Both the position numbers and the translations under genes were made by a program. Shown piece after piece: positions 8,634 to 56,118 of a stretch of 64,000 bases of DNA. Source of the DNA: a virus. Numbering within the stretch: position 1 is the stretch's first letter; each line of letters begins with the position of its first letter. The DNA is taken from IMG/VR virus record IMGVR_UViG_3300023296_001674. One strand, 5' to 3'. Under the pieces are notes generated by a model. It was not told the origin of the DNA. It was given only the letters and a program-made list of their open reading frames with translations, and did not search any database.

Positions 8634-8709
8634 GTCGTGGTGGCGAAATTGGTAACGCGATGGCTTGCAAAGATATTTATTGGGTGTTCGAGTCACCCCC
8701 ACGACTCCA
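8634..8709 (+). tRNA. tRNA-Cys (GCA), CCA encoded
   Basis: 7-bp acceptor GTCGTGG/CCACGAC; D arm with GG; anticodon loop TTGCAAA (U33, GCA, A37); T arm GGGTG-TTCGAGT-CACCC; discriminator U73 as in bacterial tRNA-Cys; 76 nt. Confidence 0.8.
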
Positions 8710-8728
8710 AATTTTAAAGGAGATATTC

Positions 8729-9553
8729 ATGAGTAACGTTATTGGTGGGCAACAACGGGTTAGATTAATATTTGATAAACGTGCGTCAAATGTTCTATTT
8801 GCGAAAGGTCAAAAACGATTATTCAGTGAACCAAATGGCACTAATCTTATGTTGACTCCTATTATGGGCGGTGGCATCGAAAAAGCAGGTCGCCGTGGTA
8901 GTAATAAAAACGGTAAAGTCAATATGGGTGATGAGATATTTCACGATAAAAAAACTGATTGTGCAGAAACTGTTTTATATTATGGAACAAAAGATGCAAT
9001 GAATTACTATCCTGTTCGGGGACAAGCGCAAATCTATCGATCTGGTTATCAATATTATATTGATGAAGTCGATAAATCAAAATATGCGGAATTTGGAAAA
9101 GTAACCATTGATTATATTGACGCGTTCGATGAGGATGATATTGAAAAATTAAGTTTCGACTTCAATACACCCGCATCGAATAAATATTTTTCTGATATTT
9201 TAAGAAATCGCGCAAATGGCGTAGTTGAACCGGGTCGTATGGCATTATTTTTATATAACGGCAAACCAGCAATTAATTTTTCACCAACTGGTAATGCCAT
9301 GGCGTTTGCCAAGGTATGGGCAAAAGGACCAGGTACGGTAAAGGGTGATTTCCATAAAGATGTTGTTAGAAATTTAAAACTTATCCCTGGATCGAGATAT
9401 AAATTCATCGTTGATGCTTATGATGCTTATGATGCTGATATTGTGTATTTGGAATATTTGTCGGAAGTTACTCATTTTGCACAAGTTGAGAAGTATGATT
9501 TTCCAGTTGTGACTGCATCCATTGTTCGTAAAAAAGGCGATTCTTGGGAGTAA
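8729..9553 (+). CDS. hypothetical protein
   Basis: ATG at 8729 after AAAGGAG; the track ORF from 8660 would read through the tRNA and is rejected. Confidence 0.45.
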   Translation: MSNVIGGQQRVRLIFDKRASNVLFAKGQKRLFSEPNGTNLMLTPIMGGGIEKAGRRGSNKNGKVNMGDEIFHDKKTDCAETVLYYGTKDAMNYYPVRGQAQIYRSGYQYYIDEVDKSKYAEFGKVTIDYIDAFDEDDIEKLSFDFNTPASNKYFSDILRNRANGVVEPGRMALFLYNGKPAINFSPTGNAMAFAKVWAKGPGTVKGDFHKDVVRNLKLIPGSRYKFIVDAYDAYDADIVYLEYLSEVTHFAQVEKYDFPVVTASIVRKKGDSWE

Positions 9554-39222: not shown

Positions 39223-39289
39223 TCTATTGACATCTCCGCACATTTATGTTATATTGGAATCATTATTAACACAAAGAAAGGATAATATC

Positions 39290-39727
39290 ATGTTGAATAA
39301 ACTGTCCGCTGCAACCATCCAAGCACGTAAAGATAAAAACGGAGACGCTAAATTATTGGTTACGTTTCTCTCCGAAGTTCGAATGCGTGCCAAAGATGAT
39401 GGCAATCGTGAAGTGACTGACACTGATATCGTTAAAGTTGCGCAAAAATTCATGAAATCAGCAAAAGAAACAGTAGGCATTCTTCAAAAAGACGATAGCC
39501 GACCAGATGCCCTTACAGCCGCACTACGTGAAATCGAAGTGCTTGATGCGTATATTCCTACACTTATGGATGAAGACGCTACACGGGCTGCTGTAGCCGC
39601 TGCAATCGAAGCAACTGGCGCTACCGATATGTCTGATATGGGTAGAATTATGGGTGAATTGAAAAAATCACACGGCGTAACCATTAATATGGGTCTTGCT
39701 TCCGGTATTTTGAAAACGTCATTCTAA
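39290..39727 (+). CDS. GatB/YqeY-domain protein
   Basis: MLNKLSAATIQARKDKNGDAKLLVTFLSEVRMRAKD...DIVKVAQKFMKSAKE matches the YqeY/GatB C-terminal domain; ATG at 39290 after AAGGA. Confidence 0.55.
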   Translation: MLNKLSAATIQARKDKNGDAKLLVTFLSEVRMRAKDDGNREVTDTDIVKVAQKFMKSAKETVGILQKDDSRPDALTAALREIEVLDAYIPTLMDEDATRAAVAAAIEATGATDMSDMGRIMGELKKSHGVTINMGLASGILKTSF

Positions 39728-40534: not shown

Positions 40535-40584
40535 TTGACAGAAAGAGGTAGTTGAGGTAATATAAAAATAGATAAACAACCGAT

Positions 40585-40665
40585 GCTGGTAACGCATAGT
40601 GGGGGTGCAGCGTGCTCATAACGCGCCGACGAAAGTCCGGGTTGGTTCGATTCCAACTATCAGTA
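40585..40665 (+). tRNA. atypical tRNA-like gene: anticodon CAU, long variable arm, no encoded CCA
   Basis: acceptor GCTGGTA/TATCAGT (7 bp, 2 G-U); D arm GCAT-agtgggg-GTGC; anticodon arm GCGTG-CTCATAA-CGCGC (U33, CAU, A37, A38); 14-nt variable arm with GAAA tetraloop; T arm GTTGG-TTCGATT-CCAAC; A8 rather than U8. Confidence 0.45.
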
Positions 40666-40685
40666 CATATAAGAAATGGTTGGCT

Positions 40686-41366
40686 TTAGCCGACTATTTT
40701 TTTGACTTCAATAAAAGCACTTTCTGGTGAGAAATAACGATCTTCAAATATGACTACATTCCATCCATTTTCTTTGAATAGTTTTTGTTTGATTCGGTCT
40801 CTATTTTGAACTTGTTTTAAACTATGCACCAAGCCTACCATTTCTTTATAATGCCATGGGCCATTCCATAGGATTGCTATTTTATGATCATTTAGTATAA
40901 TGTCTGCGTCCCATCCATCTACTAAATGTTTATTGTGGTCTACGTTGTTGTATTTTTGATGACATAAATCATATAATGCCATTTCATCTTTACTTCGCAA
41001 ACATCGTTTTTGTGCGGATATTTTGCCGCCTATAAGACCACCTTTTTTGCCTGCTGCACGTAGTCTATTATTGAAACAACTTGTAGAACAAGTTTTGCGT
41101 TTTCTATTTTTCGTTGGATGGTTTTTTGACGGTGTGTTATAAAACTTGACACCACAACTATTACACTCGCACCATATTATTGGCGAGTAATCACCATCGA
41201 TGCCGTTATATTTAAGAACGGATAAACGTGTTTTATTTTTACTGTGTTCTGAACGTTTTCTATTTTTGTTGTTGAATGTCGCGGCACATTGGCGGCTACA
41301 ATACTTGCGTCTATGATCGTTTGTTTCAAACTCATTTCCACATTGTTCACATTTTTTGATTTTCAT
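40686..41366 (-). CDS. Vsr/DUF559-type homing endonuclease with N-terminal zinc fingers
   Basis: CEQCGNEF...CSRQC and CECNSCG...CSTSC fingers; C-terminal DGWDADIILNDHKIAILWNGPWHY...NGWNVVIFEDRYF (DUF559/Vsr fold). Confidence 0.55.
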   Translation of the reverse strand: MKIKKCEQCGNEFETNDHRRKYCSRQCAATFNNKNRKRSEHSKNKTRLSVLKYNGIDGDYSPIIWCECNSCGVKFYNTPSKNHPTKNRKRKTCSTSCFNNRLRAAGKKGGLIGGKISAQKRCLRSKDEMALYDLCHQKYNNVDHNKHLVDGWDADIILNDHKIAILWNGPWHYKEMVGLVHSLKQVQNRDRIKQKLFKENGWNVVIFEDRYFSPESAFIEVKKIVG

Positions 41367-41477: not shown

Positions 41478-42317
41478 TCAAGTGAATATTTTAAATGCAG
41501 GATTTTTTTGTATATTTTCCATCCTTTTTTCTGCTATTTCTATATATTTTTCTTCTAAGTCTATACCAATGAAAGACCGATTGTTTTTGAGGCAAGCTAC
41601 GCCTGTTGTTCCGCTACCCATGAATGGGTCTAATACTACGCCTTGTTCCGGTGATAACAGTTTGATCAACCATGATGCTAAATTTTCTGGATATTGCGCT
41701 GGATGTGTATTAAATTTGTCTTTGTTAGATTCATGTGTCCCGACTTCGACGTAATCTTTGCATCTCGCGATTCCTGATTTGGCGGTGCTTACGCTATCGA
41801 TATATTCATTAACGCCTTTCACTGATTCCATGCCTATTCTATCCGAAACCACACCATTCGCTTTAGGATCGCAATAGCTACGCTGATCTAATGAAAACCA
41901 ATGTATGCTTTCCCAACTTCTTCTAGGGCGATAGTTGCTACCTAATGGTGCAGATGTAGGTTTAATCCATATCAATTCTTCACACTCGCGCCAACCATCT
42001 TCACGTATTGCTAGTCTCATTTTTAATGTATAATCACTGATTTGACCTTCTTTGATATGTGGTCTAATCACGATTGCCACATTACCGGCTGGTTTAAGAA
42101 TTCGTTTGACTTGTTGCATCCATTTTACAGTCCATTCAGGGTAATCGTGTTCATTGATTCCGTTGTATAATCCATCGCGTTGTTCGGCATACGGTGGTGA
42201 AGTTAACACCAAGTCTACAGAATTATCTTCTATATTTGTTATTTGTTCTAATAAATCACCTTTAAATATAATCAATTTTAGCACTCCAATAAAATAATTT
42301 CCTATTGTATTTATCAT
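41478..42317 (-). CDS. beta-class DNA amino-methyltransferase (N6-adenine or N4-cytosine)
   Basis: motif IV DLVLTSPPY precedes motif I DPFMGSGTTG (beta-class order); true start may be the internal TTG preceded by GGAGTG. Confidence 0.7.
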   Translation of the reverse strand: MINTIGNYFIGVLKLIIFKGDLLEQITNIEDNSVDLVLTSPPYAEQRDGLYNGINEHDYPEWTVKWMQQVKRILKPAGNVAIVIRPHIKEGQISDYTLKMRLAIREDGWRECEELIWIKPTSAPLGSNYRPRRSWESIHWFSLDQRSYCDPKANGVVSDRIGMESVKGVNEYIDSVSTAKSGIARCKDYVEVGTHESNKDKFNTHPAQYPENLASWLIKLLSPEQGVVLDPFMGSGTTGVACLKNNRSFIGIDLEEKYIEIAEKRMENIQKNPAFKIFT

Positions 42318-49618: not shown

Positions 49619-50617
49619 ATGTCGCATTCTTCTAAAAAGGTAATTTATTATGCTGCGGTAGCCAATTTTGGTATTGCTATTGCTAAATTTGGTGGTGCAT
49701 GGCTTACTGGTAGTGCCGCTATGATGTCAGAAGGAATTCACTCTTTGGTGGATACCAGCAATCAAGGATTGCTTTTATTGGGGATGAAAAAAGCGAGTAA
49801 ACCAGCAGATGCCAAACATCCTTCTGGTTATGGTCGTGAACTTTATTTTTATGCATTTATTGTAGCCATTCTTATTTTTGCAGTTGGTGCAGGTGTATCA
49901 TTATTGGAAGGTGTAGAAGCATTGATGCATGGTAAAGCATTATTAATGGGATCGGTTGCATTCGTGGGTTTCAATATTGGATATCAATACATTGTTCTTG
50001 GTATTTTATTTTTTGGTATGTTGTTGGAAGGGAAATCGTGGTTGGTTGCATATCAGGAATTTACTGGATCGTTACCAAATGGTGTAGGTGTGTGGAAAGG
50101 TCTTACTGATGTTAAAGACCCGACTGTAGCAGTTATTTTAGTTGAAGACACTGCTGCTATGTTGGGTTTGTTTGTAGCATTTATTGGTGTAGGGGCAGCA
50201 TATTATTTTAATAATTCGTTGCTTGATGCTGGTGCAACTATTATTATTGGTGTTATTTTAGCATCGGTATCAATGTTTTTGGCGTATGAATGTAAATCGT
50301 TATTGATCGGCGAAGCAGCATCACCAGAAGTCCAAAAAAGTATTGCTGATATTATTTCTGAAATGCCGGGTGTTATTAAAGCGAACGAAGTTATTACTGA
50401 ACATATTGGGCCAAAAGAAGTTAGAGTATTGATTTCATTGGATTTTAAGGATTCTACTTCATCGACGCAAATTGAAGCAATTTCTAGCAGATTGGAAAAG
50501 CAAATTAAAAAGAAACACGTCGATGTTACGAGAGTGTTTGTTGAAGCACAAAGCAGTTATTCGCATGCACGCGATGCTGAAACCGAAGCGGCTGAACATA
50601 ATGGATTATACGGATGA
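49619..50617 (+). CDS. cation diffusion facilitator family transporter
   Basis: TM domain with MSEGIHSLVDTSNQG (HSLxD metal-binding motif), 5-6 helices, cytoplasmic C-terminal domain. Confidence 0.65.
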   Translation: MSHSSKKVIYYAAVANFGIAIAKFGGAWLTGSAAMMSEGIHSLVDTSNQGLLLLGMKKASKPADAKHPSGYGRELYFYAFIVAILIFAVGAGVSLLEGVEALMHGKALLMGSVAFVGFNIGYQYIVLGILFFGMLLEGKSWLVAYQEFTGSLPNGVGVWKGLTDVKDPTVAVILVEDTAAMLGLFVAFIGVGAAYYFNNSLLDAGATIIIGVILASVSMFLAYECKSLLIGEAASPEVQKSIADIISEMPGVIKANEVITEHIGPKEVRVLISLDFKDSTSSTQIEAISSRLEKQIKKKHVDVTRVFVEAQSSYSHARDAETEAAEHNGLYG

Positions 50618-51198
50618 AAAAATTAAAAATAGCAGTTTTAATTTCTGGCAATGGGTCTAACTTACAAGCATTGATAAATTCATGTAGACCGAATGTTTCA
50701 CCAGTTGAAATCGTATGTGTTATATCTAATGAGGCTTCTGCATATGGATTAACAAGGGCAAAAGAAAGTGGTATAAGAACATTTGTTGCGCCATATTTAT
50801 CGACTAAATCGAAGCAAGAAAACGATCAATTTGTGACATATATTTTAAATTATTTTGATGTTGATTTAGTATGTCTTGCCGGATTTATGAAATTATTCAC
50901 AAATGAATTTTGTGAACGATGGAAAGGTAATTTGATCAACATACATCCTTCATTGTTGCCCAAGTATAAAGGACTTGACGTATATCAACGAGCACTTGAT
51001 GACAATGAAACAGTTAGTGGATGCACAATTCATTACGTGACGGCGAAAATGGACGATGGCCCAATTATTGCTCAATATCAAGTCCCAATTAATGAGGGTG
51101 ATACATCTGAAGATTTACAAAAACGTATTTTAACAATGGAGCATTTGATATATCCTAATGTGGTATATAGAATTGCACATGAACGAGGGTTTGGTTAA
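50614..51198 (+). CDS. purN: phosphoribosylglycinamide formyltransferase
   Basis: KIAVLISGNGSNLQAL; NIHPSLLPKYKGLDVYQRAL; GCTIHYVTAKMDDGPIIAQ. Confidence 0.7.
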   Translation: MKKLKIAVLISGNGSNLQALINSCRPNVSPVEIVCVISNEASAYGLTRAKESGIRTFVAPYLSTKSKQENDQFVTYILNYFDVDLVCLAGFMKLFTNEFCERWKGNLINIHPSLLPKYKGLDVYQRALDDNETVSGCTIHYVTAKMDDGPIIAQYQVPINEGDTSEDLQKRILTMEHLIYPNVVYRIAHERGFG

Positions 51199-52170: not shown

Positions 52171-53103
52171 ATGATTAATAAAGACGCAAAAATTTTAGTA
52201 GCAGTATCTGGTGGTGTTGACTCTGTCTATATGTTACATTTGTTATTGAAACTTGGATATTCAAATCTTGGTGTTGTTAATTTCAATCATCAACATCGCG
52301 ATGAATCTATGATGGAACAACAATTTGTTAGAACGTTGGCAGAAAATAGCAAACTCGTATTTCACGCCGCAGGTACTAATGTAGATACTCATTGTAAAAT
52401 GAGAAACGAATCATTCGAGTTAGTGGCAAGAGATTTGCGGCGCACGTATTTTAATGCTATTATTGAAGAGCATGAATATGAATGGCTTGCATTGGGTCAA
52501 CATAGTGATGACCAAGCAGAAACTGTTTTATTGAATTTGTTTCGTGGTTCGGGCGTCCATGGATTGGCTGGAATGCTTGGTGAAGATGAAGAACAAAAAA
52601 TCTTTCGACCACTACTTCAAATGTCAAAGCATGAAATTTATACAAGTGCGATTGCTGCTAATCTCGAATGGCACGAAGATCACACCAATCATGAAACGGA
52701 ACACGATAGAAATTGGTTGCGCAATGAAATTATTCCACAGTTGGAAACTCGCCGCAGTGGATTAAAAACAGTATTGAATGATACTGCTACACGTATGCAA
52801 GATATGAGTGATTATATCAAAAGTGAAGCACATCATTGGTTTGAAAATTATTTTTTAGGAACTGGTTATCAACTTTCAGCCAATCATTACATGGTAGAAC
52901 ATAAAGTTTTACGTGCTGAAATTTTAGGTTTTATTTGGGTATACTGTAATGGTTCACGTAAAAACTTTAACAACAAAGTAGTGTTTGAAATTGAAAAATG
53001 GTTATCGTCTAATCCAGAAGGTGGAACCAAAGTCTATTTTGGTGACACATATTTGACTATTAAACATGGATTGGTAACAGTAATTTATGATAAAACAACG
53101 TAG
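52171..53103 (+). CDS. tilS: tRNA(Ile)-lysidine synthetase, short form
   Basis: PP-loop KILVAVSGGVDSVYMLHLL; N-type ATP pyrophosphatase fold; 310 aa (lacks the long C-terminal domain of E. coli TilS). Confidence 0.7.
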   Translation: MINKDAKILVAVSGGVDSVYMLHLLLKLGYSNLGVVNFNHQHRDESMMEQQFVRTLAENSKLVFHAAGTNVDTHCKMRNESFELVARDLRRTYFNAIIEEHEYEWLALGQHSDDQAETVLLNLFRGSGVHGLAGMLGEDEEQKIFRPLLQMSKHEIYTSAIAANLEWHEDHTNHETEHDRNWLRNEIIPQLETRRSGLKTVLNDTATRMQDMSDYIKSEAHHWFENYFLGTGYQLSANHYMVEHKVLRAEILGFIWVYCNGSRKNFNNKVVFEIEKWLSSNPEGGTKVYFGDTYLTIKHGLVTVIYDKTT

Positions 53104-53424: not shown

Positions 53425-54675
53425 ATGTCGCATGTTTTTAAAAATGATTTAATGGTGGATTTGACCGATAGAGGTTTTATACACTCTACTACGGCTGACA
53501 CCAATCTCGAAAACGCATTAAGTGAGCCATGCGTCATTTACTGTGGATTTGATTGCACTGCTGATTCTTTGCATATTGGTAGTTTAGTCCAACTTAAAAT
53601 GTTAAAAAAGTTTAAAGACGCTGGTCATGTAGTGGTTCCAGTTATTGGAACTGCTACGACTAAAATTGGCGATCCATCTGGTCGCGATACGGCAAGACCG
53701 TTACTTACAGATGAAGAAATTGATCGTAATGCTAGGGGCATCGAATTCAGCATTTCTAATGTGGTTGATGCTGATGAAGTTATACACAATCATGAATTTA
53801 TTGAAGAACTTGACGTCGTTGATTTCATGCGCAATATCGGTAGTAAGATATCCATCAACACAATGATGAATCTTGAAAGCGTTCGTTCGAGAATGGAAGG
53901 CGACGAAGGAATGTCATTTCTTGAATTTTCATACAGTTTATTTCAAGCATACGATTTCTACAATATCATCAATGAAAACCCAACCATGCATGTAATTCAA
54001 ATAGGCGGCAGTGATCAATGGGGTAATATCACCATGGGTTTGGAGTTGGCTAAAAAAATGTGGGATAGCAAAAATCCAATGAAAGAAGCATTTGGCATTA
54101 CAACGCCATTGTTGACATCGTCTAATGGTCAAAAAATGGGCAAAACTGCGGATGGTGTAGTATGGCTCAATGGGAGCAAAATGACTGCATTGGATTTCTG
54201 GCAATTTTGGAGAAATATTCCAGATGATGATCTATTCCATTTGTTGCGATTATTTAGCGATTCAAGTCTTGAATTAATAAACCATATGGATGAGCACGGC
54301 AGTGAAACAGATGGTTACATCAACATGATGAAAAAATCATTCGCTTGTGAAATGACTTCTATGATTCGCGGTAACGATGAATCATTAAAAGCGGCAAAAA
54401 TGGCAGAAAGCATATTTGAAGATAAATCAGATATTGATTTACCAGAACATAAAGTTGATCGAGAATGCATGGTTAGTAATCTTGCATTGACTGTCTTTTT
54501 ACGCGAAGAAGGATTTATGAAATCATCCGGCGAAGCCAAACGCATGATTCAACAAGGTGGAATTCGTATAGACAACGTTAAGGTCGACGATGTCAATACT
54601 ATTATATCATCAAAAGGTGAATCATTCAAACTAAGCATAGGACAAAAGAAACATTACAGGATTGAATTTGAATGA
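53425..54675 (+). CDS. tyrS: tyrosine--tRNA ligase, bacterial type with C-terminal S4 domain
   Basis: HIGH motif (DSLHIGSL); KMSKS variant (QKMGKT); C-terminal S4-like RNA-binding domain; 416 aa. Confidence 0.85.
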   Translation: MSHVFKNDLMVDLTDRGFIHSTTADTNLENALSEPCVIYCGFDCTADSLHIGSLVQLKMLKKFKDAGHVVVPVIGTATTKIGDPSGRDTARPLLTDEEIDRNARGIEFSISNVVDADEVIHNHEFIEELDVVDFMRNIGSKISINTMMNLESVRSRMEGDEGMSFLEFSYSLFQAYDFYNIINENPTMHVIQIGGSDQWGNITMGLELAKKMWDSKNPMKEAFGITTPLLTSSNGQKMGKTADGVVWLNGSKMTALDFWQFWRNIPDDDLFHLLRLFSDSSLELINHMDEHGSETDGYINMMKKSFACEMTSMIRGNDESLKAAKMAESIFEDKSDIDLPEHKVDRECMVSNLALTVFLREEGFMKSSGEAKRMIQQGGIRIDNVKVDDVNTIISSKGESFKLSIGQKKHYRIEFE

Positions 54676-55016
54676 TATTTAAAGACGCAGATATTACCCG
54701 ATTTTGGAGTAAAGTAAAAAGAGAAAAAGAAAACGACTGTTGGCATTGGCAAGGTGGAATTCACTGGGCAAGTTCATTGGAAGTTCGTAATCGATATGGT
54801 GTATTTCATGCAAATAATAAAAAATATAGAGCACATCGTGTTTCTTATGCTATAATAAATGGAATAATACCAGATGGGCATGTTGTTAGACATAAGTGCG
54901 ATAATCCTAAATGTTGCAATCCAGCACATTTGGAAACTGGCACACAACAGGAAAACGATATGGATAGAATTATTCGTGGTAGAACGAGGAACGGACATAC
55001 AGGGAGAATAAAATGA
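54672..55016 (+). CDS. HNH homing endonuclease
   Basis: CWHWQGG...YRAHRVSYAI...HKCDNPKCCNPAHLETGTQQEN; ATGA overlap with the tyrS stop. Confidence 0.65.
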   Translation: MIFKDADITRFWSKVKREKENDCWHWQGGIHWASSLEVRNRYGVFHANNKKYRAHRVSYAIINGIIPDGHVVRHKCDNPKCCNPAHLETGTQQENDMDRIIRGRTRNGHTGRIK

Positions 55017-55306: not shown

Positions 55307-55631
55307 TAAAAATGCCAATTTAATAGGTGCGGCAATGGTGTGTTTGACAATTGTTATTGTTGTTAATGTGATAACACCCAATGAGCCGGTAGTGTTCCCA
55401 CCAATATCTCTAACAAATGTTGAAATGGATTGTGGTTCTATTACTGCCACCGGGGCAACACGAATGGATGTATATATTAGAACATGCCCATCGGTAGAAC
55501 TCAGTGCAGGAAGAACGTGTGTTCATCGCGCACCACATTTGTTTTGTCCAAAAGTAGTTATCGAACTTAATGTTGATGAAACAGTAAAATCAATTCGTAA
55601 GTTTTCCAATATAGAGGTTGAAAATGAGTAA
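55296..55631 (+). CDS. membrane-anchored hypothetical protein
   Basis: ATG at 55296 with GAGG SD (the track start at 55281 lacks an SD); N-terminal TM helix. Confidence 0.35.
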   Translation: MLSNKNANLIGAAMVCLTIVIVVNVITPNEPVVFPPISLTNVEMDCGSITATGATRMDVYIRTCPSVELSAGRTCVHRAPHLFCPKVVIELNVDETVKSIRKFSNIEVENE

Positions 55632-56118
55632 ATCGATTGCGGTATACGCGGGAAGTTTTTCGCCAATAACTCTGGGACACTTAGATATCATCGAAAAAGC
55701 GCGTAATCTGTTTGATGTTATATATGTTTCGGTTGGGCATAATGAAAATAAAACCAGTTTGTTTACAGTCAACGAACGTATTAAATTGATTAAGTGTTCC
55801 ATGGAAGAATATGGTATATCAAATGATACAGTTAATGTTACTTCATTCGATGGATTATTAATTGATCATGCCGAATTGAAAAATGCCACACATTTGGTTC
55901 GTGGATTGCGTGCTGCATCTGATTTTGACGCGGAGTTCACATTGAATGGAACTAACTCCAGAATGAATAATGATATTGTTACAACGTTTTTCATGGCACC
56001 ACAAGATTTTCTATTTGTGTCATCAAGTACGGTAAAAGTGTTAGCACCAAGTGGAAAAGATATTTCGTGGATGGTTACGCCGTGTGTTGAAGCAGCACTT
56101 AAGGAGAAATTCAAATGA
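55624..56118 (+). CDS. coaD: phosphopantetheine adenylyltransferase
   Basis: IAVYAGSFSPITLGHLDII (nucleotidyltransferase T/HxGH motif); 164 aa. Confidence 0.75.
   Translation: MSKSIAVYAGSFSPITLGHLDIIEKARNLFDVIYVSVGHNENKTSLFTVNERIKLIKCSMEEYGISNDTVNVTSFDGLLIDHAELKNATHLVRGLRAASDFDAEFTLNGTNSRMNNDIVTTFFMAPQDFLFVSSSTVKVLAPSGKDISWMVTPCVEAALKEKFK

What the first reader, a model, noticed from the sequence alone, without database searches (positions are those of the whole stretch)
40585..40665. Atypical tRNA-like gene with CAU anticodon and long variable arm, adjacent to a Vsr-type homing endonuclease
An 81-nt cloverleaf can be drawn by hand: 7-bp acceptor (two G-U pairs), D arm with GG, canonical anticodon loop CUCAUAA, 14-nt variable arm with a GAAA tetraloop, textbook T arm GTTGG-TTCGATT-CCAAC, no encoded CCA, and A at position 8. 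CAU with a class-II-like variable arm fits no standard bacterial isotype (Met/fMet/Ile2 are class I). It could be a divergent phage tRNA, a TilS substrate (tilS sits at 52171-53103), a tRNA pseudogene, or an attachment-site remnant. The homing endonuclease gene ends 21 nt downstream.
Basis: seen in the sequence. Interest (0 to 1): 0.6.

Follow-up and report, generated by a model that had tools for sequence, protein, structure and literature searches.

The report
Phage tRNA(CAU) with an extra arm
This is a real transfer-RNA gene of a giant (about 570 kb) phage, one of a widespread but apparently undescribed family of CAU-anticodon tRNAs that carry an extra hairpin arm; it most likely reads the isoleucine codon AUA after modification by the phage's own TilS enzyme, and it sits beside a Vsr-fold homing endonuclease that keeps turning up next to unusual tRNA(CAU) genes.

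Summary
ARAGORN calls a tRNA(CAU) at 40585-40666. Rfam's tRNA model gives 38.2 bits (threshold 29). A model built only from 34 related tRNAs of other phages scores it 79.6 bits, the only hit in the window. It has a promoter-like site and a terminator-like hairpin.

It belongs to a family of at least 41 distinct sequences, mostly marine phage contigs. They share A8, a GGGG D loop and a 3-bp variable-arm hairpin with a mostly GNRA-type loop. All five helices covary.

Identity is not settled. I favour tRNA-Ile2 (about 0.55):
- A type II-like TilS lies 11.5 kb downstream.
- AUA is 34% of Ile codons.
- Family members travel with Arg(UCU) and Leu(UAA), as in T4.
- Three other long-arm CAU tRNAs sit beside phage TilS genes.

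Elongator tRNA-Met is the main rival (about 0.3). Initiator, pseudogene and attachment-site readings are poorly supported.

The neighbouring gene has a Vsr/I-Bth0305I fold. Its homologues repeatedly abut tRNA(CAU) genes carrying insertions, either a long variable arm or a roughly 50-nt anticodon-loop insert.

The claim that CAU with a long arm fits no bacterial tRNA is overstated: Burkholderiaceae carry one just downstream of rpoD.

The parts
40535..40563 (+). Sigma-70-like promoter: TTGACA, 17-nt spacer, TAATAT. It ends 21 nt before the tRNA 5' end.
   Evidence: The consensus scan gives 10 of 12 matches. The scan found 2 such sites in the region against 1.5 expected from shuffles, so the match alone is weak. 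The same element (TTGACAGAAAG..GTTGAGGTATTAT) is conserved before the tRNA in the syntenic slot of the related phage L393, where the upstream coding sequence is not conserved.
40585..40665 (+). tRNA gene of 81 nt with anticodon CAU, A8, a 14-nt variable arm (3-bp stem plus GAAA loop), A73 and no encoded CCA. Most likely tRNA-Ile2; the alternative is elongator tRNA-Met.
   Evidence: ARAGORN. Rfam tRNA 38.2 bits. Leave-one-out family model 79.6 bits, E 5e-23. Across the family, 95.3% of cells are paired, 20 of 24 pairs change on both sides, and 0 of 500 shuffles reach the observed values.
40671..40702 (.). Hairpin with a 14-bp stem and UUUA loop, flanked by an A run and a U run. It is a terminator-like element, possibly two-way, between the convergent tRNA and endonuclease genes.
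   Evidence: RNA fold -15.8 kcal/mol, z -5.3, 0 of 200 shuffles fold as well. It is nearly identical in L393. The consensus terminator scan did not call it.
40686..41366 (-). Free-standing endonuclease gene (226 aa): N-terminal Cys-rich zinc-ribbon-like repeats and a C-terminal Vsr-like nuclease domain. It is convergent with the tRNA.
   Evidence: No Pfam or NCBIfam family. PHROG 1271 'HNH endonuclease', E 2e-9. More than 700 homologues, a few named Vsr endonuclease by JGI. AlphaFold model pLDDT 91. Best Foldseek matches are Vsr 1vsr (E 2.9e-4) and I-Bth0305I 3r3p (E 2.5e-3).
41478..42317 (-). N6/N4 DNA methyltransferase, kept next to the endonuclease in the related phage. Context only; no demonstrated link to the tRNA.
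   Evidence: Pfam N6_N4_Mtase 141.8 bits. 84% identical and in the same order in L393.
52171..53103 (+). Phage tRNA(Ile)-lysidine synthetase (TilS) of the short, type II-like form. It is the proposed modifier of C34 of the tRNA.
   Evidence: NCBIfam TIGR02432 lysidine_TilS_N 162.3 bits (cutoff 93.6). Best solved relative is Aquifex aeolicus TilS 1wy5, 317 aa, E 5e-28. 69% identical orthologue in L393.

Best explanation
The feature at 40585-40665 is a functional tRNA gene of a huge phage.

Proposed mechanism:
1. It is transcribed from its own sigma-70-like promoter and ends at a hairpin terminator.
2. The transcript is trimmed and receives CCA from a CCA-adding enzyme, because CCA is not encoded.
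3. It folds into a cloverleaf with a fifth, short hairpin arm in the variable region.
4. The phage's own short (type II-like) TilS converts C34 to lysidine.
5. Host IleRS then charges it with isoleucine, and it reads AUA, a codon the phage uses heavily.

The extra arm is a heritable family trait, not damage. What it does is not shown. The most economical guess is that it is tolerated by class I synthetases and helps to tell this tRNA apart from tRNA-Met, and/or alters a DNA site that the neighbouring homing endonuclease would otherwise cut.

Shown: the gene, the structure, family membership, the TilS gene, the codon usage and the endonuclease fold. Inferred: expression, CCA addition, lysidine formation, Ile charging and any role of the arm.

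Sub-confidences: real tRNA gene and family member 0.95; Ile2 identity about 0.55.
For: A real gene:
- (79.6 bits from a model that never saw it).
- Covariation in all five helices, including the variable-arm helix: 3 of 3 pairs change on both sides and 97.5% of cells are paired.
- The promoter and terminator are conserved in a relative.

Ile2 reading:
1. TilS is encoded 11.5 kb downstream on the same strand.
2. This is the only CAU tRNA in the 64 kb.
3. AUA is 26.1 per 1000 codons, 34% of Ile codons and as frequent as AUG. For comparison, E. coli uses 4.9 and Borrelia burgdorferi 39.0 per 1000 (PMC12514573 supplement).
4. Phage TilS genes usually come with a CAU tRNA. In 80 IMG/VR TilS loci, at least 11 have one 53-74 nt downstream. 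The jumbo phage MIJ3 has TilS plus three CAU tRNAs.
5. Long-arm CAU tRNAs can be TilS partners. L075 has TilS about 900 nt upstream of an 88-nt A8 tRNA(CAU). L227 has tRNA, then an HNH gene, then TilS. L329 and L331 have a 93-nt CAU tRNA 454 nt after TilS.
6. In 39 distinct family loci the commonest companions are Leu(UAA) and Arg(UCU), 15 each, and the one-companion sets are mostly Arg(UCU) or Leu(UAA). This is the rare-codon set of T4, whose only CAU tRNA is its tRNA-Ile, which ARAGORN also labels 'Met'.
7. In the related phage L401, the tRNA beside the orthologous endonuclease, once its insert is removed, is 84% identical to a TilS-adjacent tRNA.
8. A type II TilS lacks the domain that reads the acceptor stem (PMC11947777). 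The absence of the E. coli-type C4:G69 and C5:G68 determinants therefore need not matter.
Against: - No direct test separates Ile2 from Met. tRNAscan-SE isotype models were not available. Sequence identity to known Ile2 and Met tRNAs is equally low, 57-68%.
- The family has A4:U69 and G5:C68 (the window has G4:C69 and G5.U68), not the C4:G69 and C5:G68 of canonical and TilS-adjacent tRNA-Ile2.
- Seven of 39 family loci also carry a tRNA(UAU), which could already read AUA.
- None of the other family loci has TilS in the stretch fetched.
- The related phage L393 keeps TilS, but its syntenic slot holds a different tRNA whose anticodon is ambiguous.
- The other 506 kb of the genome was not seen and may hold a canonical tRNA-Ile2.
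- An earlier argument of mine failed when checked. The B. cenocepacia tRNA-Ile2 used in PMC12514573 is an ordinary 79-nt tRNA, not the 88-nt long-arm gene.
- The family was collected with a pattern that fixes TGGGG, CTCATAA and GGTTCGATTCC, so invariance of those stretches is partly by construction.
Confidence: 0.5

Rival explanations
1. It is an elongator tRNA-Met. C34 stays unmodified or is not lysidinylated, MetRS charges it through the CAU anticodon, and it reads AUG. The TilS gene serves another tRNA elsewhere in the 570-kb genome or host tRNAs.
For: - CAU is the main MetRS determinant (established knowledge; unmodified tRNA-Ile2 is charged by MetRS, PMC12514573).
- The family lacks C4:G69 and C5:G68.
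- It often co-occurs with tRNA(UAU).
- Phage L013 has a short and a long paralogue side by side, so the two must differ in role.
- L393 keeps TilS without an unambiguous CAU tRNA nearby.
- GenBank annotates the cultured-phage member (Ochrobactrum phage vB_OspM_OC) as tRNA-Met, although that label rests on the anticodon only.
Against: - AUG has no synonymous codon, so a lone phage tRNA-Met gives no codon-usage benefit. Yet this family is often the only tRNA in the stretch fetched, or is paired only with Arg(UCU) or Leu(UAA).
- T4's equivalent tRNA is Ile.
- TilS is in the same window and AUA use is heavy.
- Other long-arm CAU tRNAs lie next to TilS.
Confidence: 0.3
2. It is a decaying or non-translational tRNA-like element. 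One form is a pseudogene. Another is a sequence kept mainly as the landing or immunity site of the adjacent homing endonuclease.
For: - No encoded CCA, whereas most family members and the window's tRNA-Cys encode it.
- It is the lowest-scoring member of the family (79.6 against 86.6-101.8 bits).
- G1.U72 and G5.U68 wobble pairs, and G15 and G48 where the family has A.
- The endonuclease link.
Against: - All 24 modelled pairs form.
- The two deviations at 15 and 48 change together (A:A to G:G), and other members show U:G and C:A, as expected for a tertiary pair.
- The promoter and terminator are intact and conserved.
- Many bacteria add CCA after transcription (established knowledge).
Confidence: 0.07
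3. It is a phage initiator tRNA (fMet).
For: CAU anticodon. G1.U72 is a weak pair. Many other long-arm CAU tRNAs in phage contigs are initiator-like, with C1xA72. A formyltransferase-fold gene lies at 50614-51198.
Against: - There is no 1:72 mismatch.
- The anticodon stem has U30.G40, not three consecutive G:C pairs.
- Family members have Watson-Crick 1:72 pairs.
- The formyltransferase is PurN (211.6 bits, cutoff 150.1), not Fmt (73.8 bits, cutoff 201.5).
Confidence: 0.03
4. It is a class II tRNA (Leu-, Ser- or Tyr-like body) whose anticodon mutated to CAU, inserting another amino acid at AUG.
For: A long variable arm and A73, as in tRNA-Leu. LeuRS and SerRS ignore the anticodon in bacteria (established knowledge).
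Against: - The variable-arm stem has only 3 bp.
- The D loop is small (7 nt).
- A8 replaces the U8:A14 pair needed by E. coli LeuRS, and tRNA-Ser has G73 (own knowledge).
- ORFs in the window read normally with the standard code.
- A short-arm paralogue with the same D and T arms exists in L013.
Confidence: 0.02

Closest known systems
Phage T4 tRNA-Ile (anticodon CAU, reads AUA), next to the homing endonuclease gene segB
   Same: A phage-borne CAU tRNA that anticodon-only tools call 'Met'. It belongs to a set with Arg(UCU) and Leu(UAA) and directly abuts a free-standing homing endonuclease gene.
   Different: The T4 tRNA is a 74-nt class I tRNA with C4:G69 and C5:G68 and relies on host TilS. 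SegB is a GIY-YIG enzyme. Here the tRNA has a 14-nt variable arm and A8, the phage brings its own TilS, and the endonuclease has a Vsr fold.
Phage TilS plus tRNA(CAU) modules (Pseudomonas jumbo phages MIJ3 and PA5oct; many IMG/VR contigs)
   Same: A phage-encoded TilS together with a CAU tRNA in the same genome region.
   Different: In most modules the tRNA is a canonical 75-77-nt tRNA-Ile2 lying 53-74 nt after TilS. Here the two genes are 11.5 kb apart and the tRNA is structurally atypical. Only L075, L227 and L329/L331 pair TilS with a long-arm CAU tRNA.
Class II tRNAs (Leu, Ser, Tyr) and other non-canonical tRNAs such as allo-tRNAs (Mukai et al. 2017, PMC5389517)
   Same: A base-paired extra arm in the variable region.
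   Different: The acceptor/T configuration is the normal 7/5. The arm is short (3 bp plus a tetraloop). The anticodon belongs to a class I family (Met/Ile). The D loop is small and position 8 is A.
88-nt tRNA(CAU) downstream of rpoD in Paraburkholderia, Ralstonia and Cupriavidus
   Same: CAU anticodon, A8, a long variable arm with a GAAA-capped 3-bp stem, and A73. It occupies the position relative to rpoD that ileX has in E. coli.
   Different: It has an 11-nt D loop, U14, an A31:U39 pair and the acceptor GGGCCGG with C4:G69 and C5:G68, and it encodes CCA. It scores only 42-54 bits on the window's family model. Its own identity is not established, and B. cenocepacia also has an ordinary tRNA-Ile2.
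Free-standing homing endonucleases that act together with an insertion in the neighbouring gene (F-CphI and the cyanophage psbA intron; I-Bth0305I as the Vsr-fold homing enzyme)
   Same: A Vsr-fold endonuclease gene lies beside a conserved gene whose allele carries an insertion.
   Different: No cleavage site is known here. The target would be a tRNA gene, and the insertion is a variable arm (or, in relatives, a roughly 50-nt anticodon-loop insert) rather than a group I intron. The parallel rests on my own knowledge and was not tested.

Membership tests
tRNA (Rfam RF00005) | Score at or above the curated gathering threshold of the covariance model | tested here: met
   38.2 bits against 29, over the full model 1-71. 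The call is lost by default filters on the whole window.
tRNA (Rfam RF00005) | Cloverleaf called by an independent tRNA finder, with a 7-nt anticodon loop | tested here: met
   ARAGORN tRNA-Met(cat) at 40585-40666.
Long-arm A8 tRNA(CAU) family defined here (model R2) | High score on a model built without the candidate | tested here: met
   79.6 bits, E 5e-23. The best non-members score 67.6 (L197) and 64.0 (the short paralogue in L013); E. coli ileX scores 38.5. Members score 86.6-101.8.
Long-arm A8 tRNA(CAU) family defined here (model R2) | A8; 7-nt D loop ending in GGGG; variable region of 1 nt + 3-bp stem + tetraloop + 3 nt; G31:C39; T loop UUCGAUU; A73 | tested here: met
   All are present in the window's tRNA. 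The GGGG, CUCAUAA and T-loop stretches were part of the search pattern, so their invariance is partly by construction.
Long-arm A8 tRNA(CAU) family defined here (model R2) | Encoded 3' CCA (present in most members) | tested here: not met
   The window has A73 followed by CAU.
tRNA-Ile2 (lysidine tRNA) | CAU anticodon in a CUCAUAA-type loop | tested here: met
   The feature is shared with Met and fMet tRNAs, so it does not discriminate.
tRNA-Ile2 (lysidine tRNA) | C34 converted to lysidine by TilS | not testable with these tools
   Only the enzyme gene is shown: TIGR02432 162.3 bits at 52171-53103.
tRNA-Ile2 (lysidine tRNA) | Acceptor-stem determinants C4:G69 and C5:G68 (E. coli type I TilS; Ikeuchi et al. 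as cited in PMC12514573) | tested here: not met
   The window has G4:C69 and G5.U68. These determinants are read by the CTD2 domain (PMC11947777), which the 310-aa phage enzyme is too short to hold: it matches the 317-aa type II TilS of A. aeolicus.
tRNA-Ile2 (lysidine tRNA) | Charged by IleRS and reads AUA | not testable with these tools
   Indirect only: AUA is 34% of Ile codons.
Elongator tRNA-Met | CAU anticodon with C34 not lysidinylated; charged by MetRS | tested here: inconclusive
   The anticodon is present. No sequence feature examined separates it from Ile2.
Bacterial initiator tRNA-fMet | Mismatch at 1:72 | tested here: not met
   G1.U72 wobble in the window; Watson-Crick or G.U pairs in all 41 family members.
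Bacterial initiator tRNA-fMet | Three consecutive G:C pairs at 29-31:39-41 | tested here: not met
   G29:C41, U30.G40, G31:C39.
Class II tRNA (Leu, Ser, Tyr) | Long variable arm together with a Leu, Ser or Tyr anticodon | tested here: not met
   The arm is present, but the anticodon is CAU.
Vsr-fold homing endonuclease (I-Bth0305I type), for the neighbouring gene | Vsr-like nuclease fold | tested here: met
   Model pLDDT 91.1. Foldseek: 1vsr E 2.9e-4, 1cw0 E 1.5e-3, 3r3p E 2.5e-3, TM 0.62 normalised on the target. No match by sequence to Pfam or the PDB.
Vsr-fold homing endonuclease (I-Bth0305I type), for the neighbouring gene | Site-specific cleavage of endonuclease-free alleles and preferential inheritance | not testable with these tools
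   Only the recurrent position next to tRNA(CAU) genes in unrelated contigs is shown.

The most novel reading that the evidence does not exclude
The Vsr-fold endonuclease is a free-standing homing enzyme whose target is the ordinary tRNA(CAU) gene, probably tRNA-Ile2. Alleles that carry an insertion are the immune alleles that travel with it. The insertion is a variable-arm hairpin here and in L159 and L187, and a structured roughly 50-nt insert in the anticodon loop in L393 and L401. On this reading a selfish nuclease would be driving structural innovation in a tRNA, and the extra arm may then have been co-opted as a handle that separates phage tRNA-Ile2 from tRNA-Met for the phage's own TilS.
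Probability: 0.25. Interest if true: 0.7.

Novelty: new variant of a known kind. Interest (0 to 1): 0.55.

Why it matters
Textbook rules place Met, fMet and Ile2 tRNAs in class I, with a short variable loop. This gene shows a well-conserved, covarying family of CAU tRNAs with a class II-like arm and A8. The family is spread over dozens of phage contigs, and look-alikes occur in bacterial chromosomes. Annotation pipelines simply label these genes 'tRNA-Met'.

If the Ile2 reading is right, huge phages carry a self-contained AUA-decoding pair of tRNA and TilS. The tRNA lacks the acceptor-stem marks used by type I host enzymes. That is useful for understanding how phages reprogram translation, and possibly as an orthogonal tRNA/enzyme pair.

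The repeated pairing of one endonuclease family with insertion-bearing tRNA(CAU) genes gives a concrete, testable case of a mobile nuclease shaping tRNA architecture.

I found no description of this family in the paper library. That library is incomplete, so prior description cannot be excluded.

Tried and rejected
- **Similarity searches in cultured phages.** Megablast of the region against GenBank phages found nothing. Blastn of the tRNA gave only T-arm fragments. The exact tRNA core is absent from IMG/VR.
- **Neighbouring proteins in IMG/VR.** The 154-aa neighbour has no relative there. The endonuclease search there returned only zinc-finger fragments.
- **An argument I dropped.** I had argued that the 88-nt Burkholderiaceae gene is the tRNA-Ile2 studied in B. 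cenocepacia, because G3:C70, an 11-nt D loop and G51:C63 matched the text of PMC12514573. The supplement shows that tRNA is an ordinary 79-nt one. Only the rpoD synteny and the C4:G69/C5:G68 match remain.
- **Identity by similarity.** Pairwise identity to known Ile2 and Met tRNAs does not discriminate.
- **Initiator reading.** Rejected on structure, and because the nearby formyltransferase is PurN.
- **Attachment-site reading.** No repeat of the 3' half in the window.
- **Folding energy.** Uninformative.
- **Terminator scan.** The consensus scan did not call the hairpin, although it folds strongly.
- **Endonuclease structure.** The single-sequence model was unusable, pLDDT 40. The alignment-based model was used instead. 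A profile search of PDB sequences found nothing.
- **Syntenic conservation in relatives.** The slot, promoter, terminator and endonuclease are conserved in L393, but the tRNA body is a different one. Synteny therefore supports 'a tRNA gene lives here' and not this particular tRNA.
Full report
**1. The observation**

ARAGORN calls tRNA-Met(cat) at 40585-40666. Rfam's tRNA model gives 38.2 bits (gathering score 29) when the region is searched on its own. The whole-window run lost it to the speed filters. The minimum-free-energy fold is the five-armed cloverleaf, but it is no more stable than shuffled sequence (z -0.4), so energy is not evidence. The only other tRNA in the window is tRNA-Cys at 8634-8709, which does encode CCA.

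**2. Where it comes from**

The window is part of a 570,549-bp metagenome contig (ENA ERZ27315719). It is about 36% G+C and has no close relative among cultured phages. It is a huge phage. Gene density under the standard code is normal: 72 ORFs cover 81% of the window.

**3. A family, not a one-off**

A degenerate pattern for 'CAU loop + long variable region + T loop' hit more than 119 IMG/VR contigs and more than 120 genome contigs. ARAGORN confirmed about 97 and 46 long CAU tRNAs in them. They fall into several types. A narrower pattern collected the type to which the window belongs.

This type has 41 distinct sequences with the window's own, mostly from marine and freshwater phage contigs. 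One member is in a cultured phage, Ochrobactrum phage vB_OspM_OC, where it is annotated tRNA-Met.

Shared traits:
- A8 in 38 of 40 members, which is rare in the other tRNAs of the same clusters;
- a 7-nt D loop A-N-U-G-G-G-G;
- G31:C39;
- a variable region of 1 nt + 3-bp stem + a loop that is mostly GNRA + C-G/A-A/G;
- T loop UUCGAUU and A73.

A covariance model built from 34 members without the window scores the window's tRNA 79.6 bits (E 5e-23). Members score 86.6-101.8, the best outsiders 67.6 and 64.0, and E. coli ileX 38.5.

On the family alignment 95.3% of cells pair, and 20 of 24 pairs change on both sides. Every helix covaries, including the variable arm. Shuffled and slid controls are far lower. 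Positions 15 and 48 change together: A:A in most members, G:G in the window, U:G and C:A in a few.

One caveat applies. The GGGG, CUCAUAA and T-loop stretches were fixed by the search pattern.

**4. Its own transcription unit**

A TTGACA-17-TAATAT site ends 21 nt upstream. A 14-bp hairpin flanked by A and U runs follows the tRNA (-15.8 kcal/mol, z -5.3). Both elements are conserved at the DNA level in a related phage, although the upstream gene there is different. There is no second copy of the tRNA 3' half in the window.

**5. Which amino acid? Evidence for Ile2**

ARAGORN's 'Met' label rests on the anticodon alone. It gives the same label to T4's tRNA-Ile.

- The ORF at 52171-53103 is TilS (TIGR02432, 162.3 bits against a cutoff of 93.6). 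Its closest solved relative is the short type II enzyme of Aquifex aeolicus.
- AUA makes up 34% of Ile codons, 26.1 per 1000 codons, as common as AUG.
- Phage TilS genes come with CAU tRNAs. Of 80 IMG/VR TilS loci, at least 11 have one 53-74 nt downstream. The jumbo phage MIJ3 has TilS and three CAU tRNAs.
- Three different long-arm CAU tRNAs lie beside TilS genes: L075, L227 and L329/L331.
- Family members are most often accompanied by Leu(UAA) and Arg(UCU), and are frequently the only tRNA or one of two in the stretch fetched. This mirrors the T4 set, in which the CAU tRNA is Ile.

**6. Which amino acid? Evidence against Ile2**

- The family lacks C4:G69 and C5:G68, which canonical and TilS-adjacent tRNA-Ile2 carry.
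- Seven of 39 family loci also have a tRNA(UAU).
- No other family locus shows TilS in the stretch fetched.
- Identity to reference Ile2 and Met tRNAs does not discriminate.
- The remaining 506 kb of the genome is unseen.

The missing acceptor determinants are less troubling for a type II TilS, which lacks the acceptor-binding domain (PMC11947777). I put Ile2 at about 0.55 and elongator Met at about 0.3.

The initiator reading fails on 1:72 and on the anticodon stem, and the nearby formyltransferase is PurN. A class II body charged by LeuRS or SerRS is unlikely: the stem has only 3 bp, position 8 is A, and a short-arm paralogue with the same D and T arms exists in L013.

**7. Bacterial precedents, and a correction**

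An 88-nt tRNA(CAU) has A8, an 11-nt D loop, a UCC-GAAA-GGA variable arm and the acceptor GGGCCGG. It lies 100-203 nt downstream of rpoD in 17 of 21 Paraburkholderia, Ralstonia and Cupriavidus loci. E. coli has ileX on the same side of rpoD, about 700 nt downstream with the mug gene between them.

I first equated this gene with the B. cenocepacia tRNA-Ile2 described in PMC12514573. The paper's supplement shows that tRNA to be an ordinary 79-nt one. The identity of the 88-nt gene therefore remains open.

A gene like the window's family (67.6 bits) lies among cheA, cheW and alanine racemase genes in a Tepidisphaerales genome. So 'CAU plus a long arm' is not foreign to bacteria.

**8. The neighbour**

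The 226-aa gene at 40686-41366 (-) has no Pfam or NCBIfam family. It has more than 700 homologues. A model from a 44-sequence alignment (pLDDT 91) matches E. coli Vsr and the catalytic domain of homing endonuclease I-Bth0305I best.

Homologues of this protein lie directly beside unusual tRNA(CAU) genes in unrelated contigs:
- L159: convergent, 9 nt from an 87-nt A8 long-arm tRNA.
- L187: 12 nt from an 89-nt initiator-like long-arm tRNA.
- L402-L404: 3' ends overlap a tRNA(CAU).
- L401: a tRNA with an insert of about 52 nt in the anticodon loop. With the insert removed it is 84% identical to a TilS-adjacent tRNA.
- L393: the syntenic slot of the closest relative holds a tRNA with a 48-nt insert. 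Its anticodon could be UUU, CUU, CAU or CAG, depending on the splice points.

L159 and L187 had been fetched only for the tRNA pattern, and they hold 10 and 20 tRNAs. No member of the window's family other than the window has the endonuclease nearby, so the arm exists without it.

I read this as a free-standing homing endonuclease associated with tRNA(CAU) genes. Insertion-bearing alleles may be immune to it. That part is inference only.

**9. Verdict**

This is a real, probably expressed phage tRNA gene, and a new structural variant of a known kind. Its most likely job is AUA decoding together with the phage TilS. The reason for the extra arm is unknown. The endonuclease association is the most interesting lead.

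Noticed in passing
L393:8040-8162 (+) and L401:3789-3913 (-): Relatives of this phage carry, beside the orthologous Vsr-like endonuclease, tRNA genes (Rfam 43.1 and 47.1 bits) with a 48-53-nt insert in the anticodon loop. This is far too short for a group I intron. The two inserts share a hairpin with loop UGCGARU and compensatory stem changes (GGUG/CACC against GAAG/CUUC). ARAGORN with the intron option reads the L393 gene as Lys(UUU); CAU is equally possible.
   Followed up: partly
L159:4561-5285, L187:5415-6162, L402:3001-3690 and others: The endonuclease family of window 40686-41366 recurs within 0-20 nt of tRNA(CAU) genes that carry long variable arms or other oddities, in contigs otherwise unrelated to the window.
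   Followed up: partly
IMG/VR loci L322-L328, L330, L341, L345, L347: A two-gene cassette recurs in phage contigs: a short TilS (about 180 aa matched) followed 53-74 nt later by a canonical tRNA(CAU) with a GGNCC acceptor. 244 IMG/VR contigs encode a TilS relative.
   Followed up: partly
L244-L246, L248, L251, L256, L260, L268, L277, L290 (tRNA clusters): Odd 90-94-nt tRNA(UAU) genes, some with a 4-nt D loop on a 4-bp stem and some with A8. All have a long variable arm whose loop is conserved as CAGAUUA, UAGAUUG or CCGAUUA, a GAU-containing heptaloop reminiscent of an Ile anticodon loop.
   Followed up: no
Loci L002-L120 (IMG/VR): Long variable regions are not limited to CAU tRNAs in these phage clusters. 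Many tRNAs called Asn, Ile, Thr, Cys and Lys are 82 nt or longer, and many long CAU tRNAs are initiator-like (C1xA72).
   Followed up: no
L013:1616-1690 and 1804-1887: Two paralogous CAU tRNAs lie 115 nt apart with identical D and T arms. One has a 5-nt variable loop and the other the 14-nt arm. This is a natural pair for testing what the arm does.
   Followed up: no
L123, L145 and 15 further Burkholderiaceae loci: An 88-nt tRNA(CAU) with A8, U14 and a long arm lies 100-203 nt downstream of rpoD. B. cenocepacia is documented to use an ordinary 79-nt tRNA-Ile2, so these genomes may hold a fourth kind of CAU tRNA.
   Followed up: partly
L393:6239-6314 and L401:6353-6426: Relatives carry a tRNA with anticodon CUA (an amber suppressor; ARAGORN calls it 'Pyl') next to an HSP20 gene. 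No counterpart was found in the window, where 5 of 72 ORFs end in TAG.
   Followed up: no
window 30686-33346 (+): An 886-aa protein with major-vault-protein domains (MVP_shoulder 79.4 bits, Vault_3 47.5 bits), unusual for a phage.
   Followed up: no
window 50614-51198, 53425-54675, 54672-55016, 55618-56118: Around TilS lie PurN (211.6 bits), a full TyrRS (TIGR00234, 324 bits) followed by an HNH_3 endonuclease, and CoaD. The order TilS, TyrRS, HNH is kept in L393.
   Followed up: partly
window 39227-39727 (+): A YqeY/GatB-type domain protein (Pfam 73.6 bits; PHROG 'tRNA amidotransferase') lies two genes upstream of the tRNA. This is a tRNA-binding appendage domain in other systems.
   Followed up: no
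window 8634-8709 (+): tRNA-Cys(GCA) with an encoded CCA, preceded by a TATAAT-like box. A mechanical ORF (8660-9553) starts inside it.
   Followed up: no
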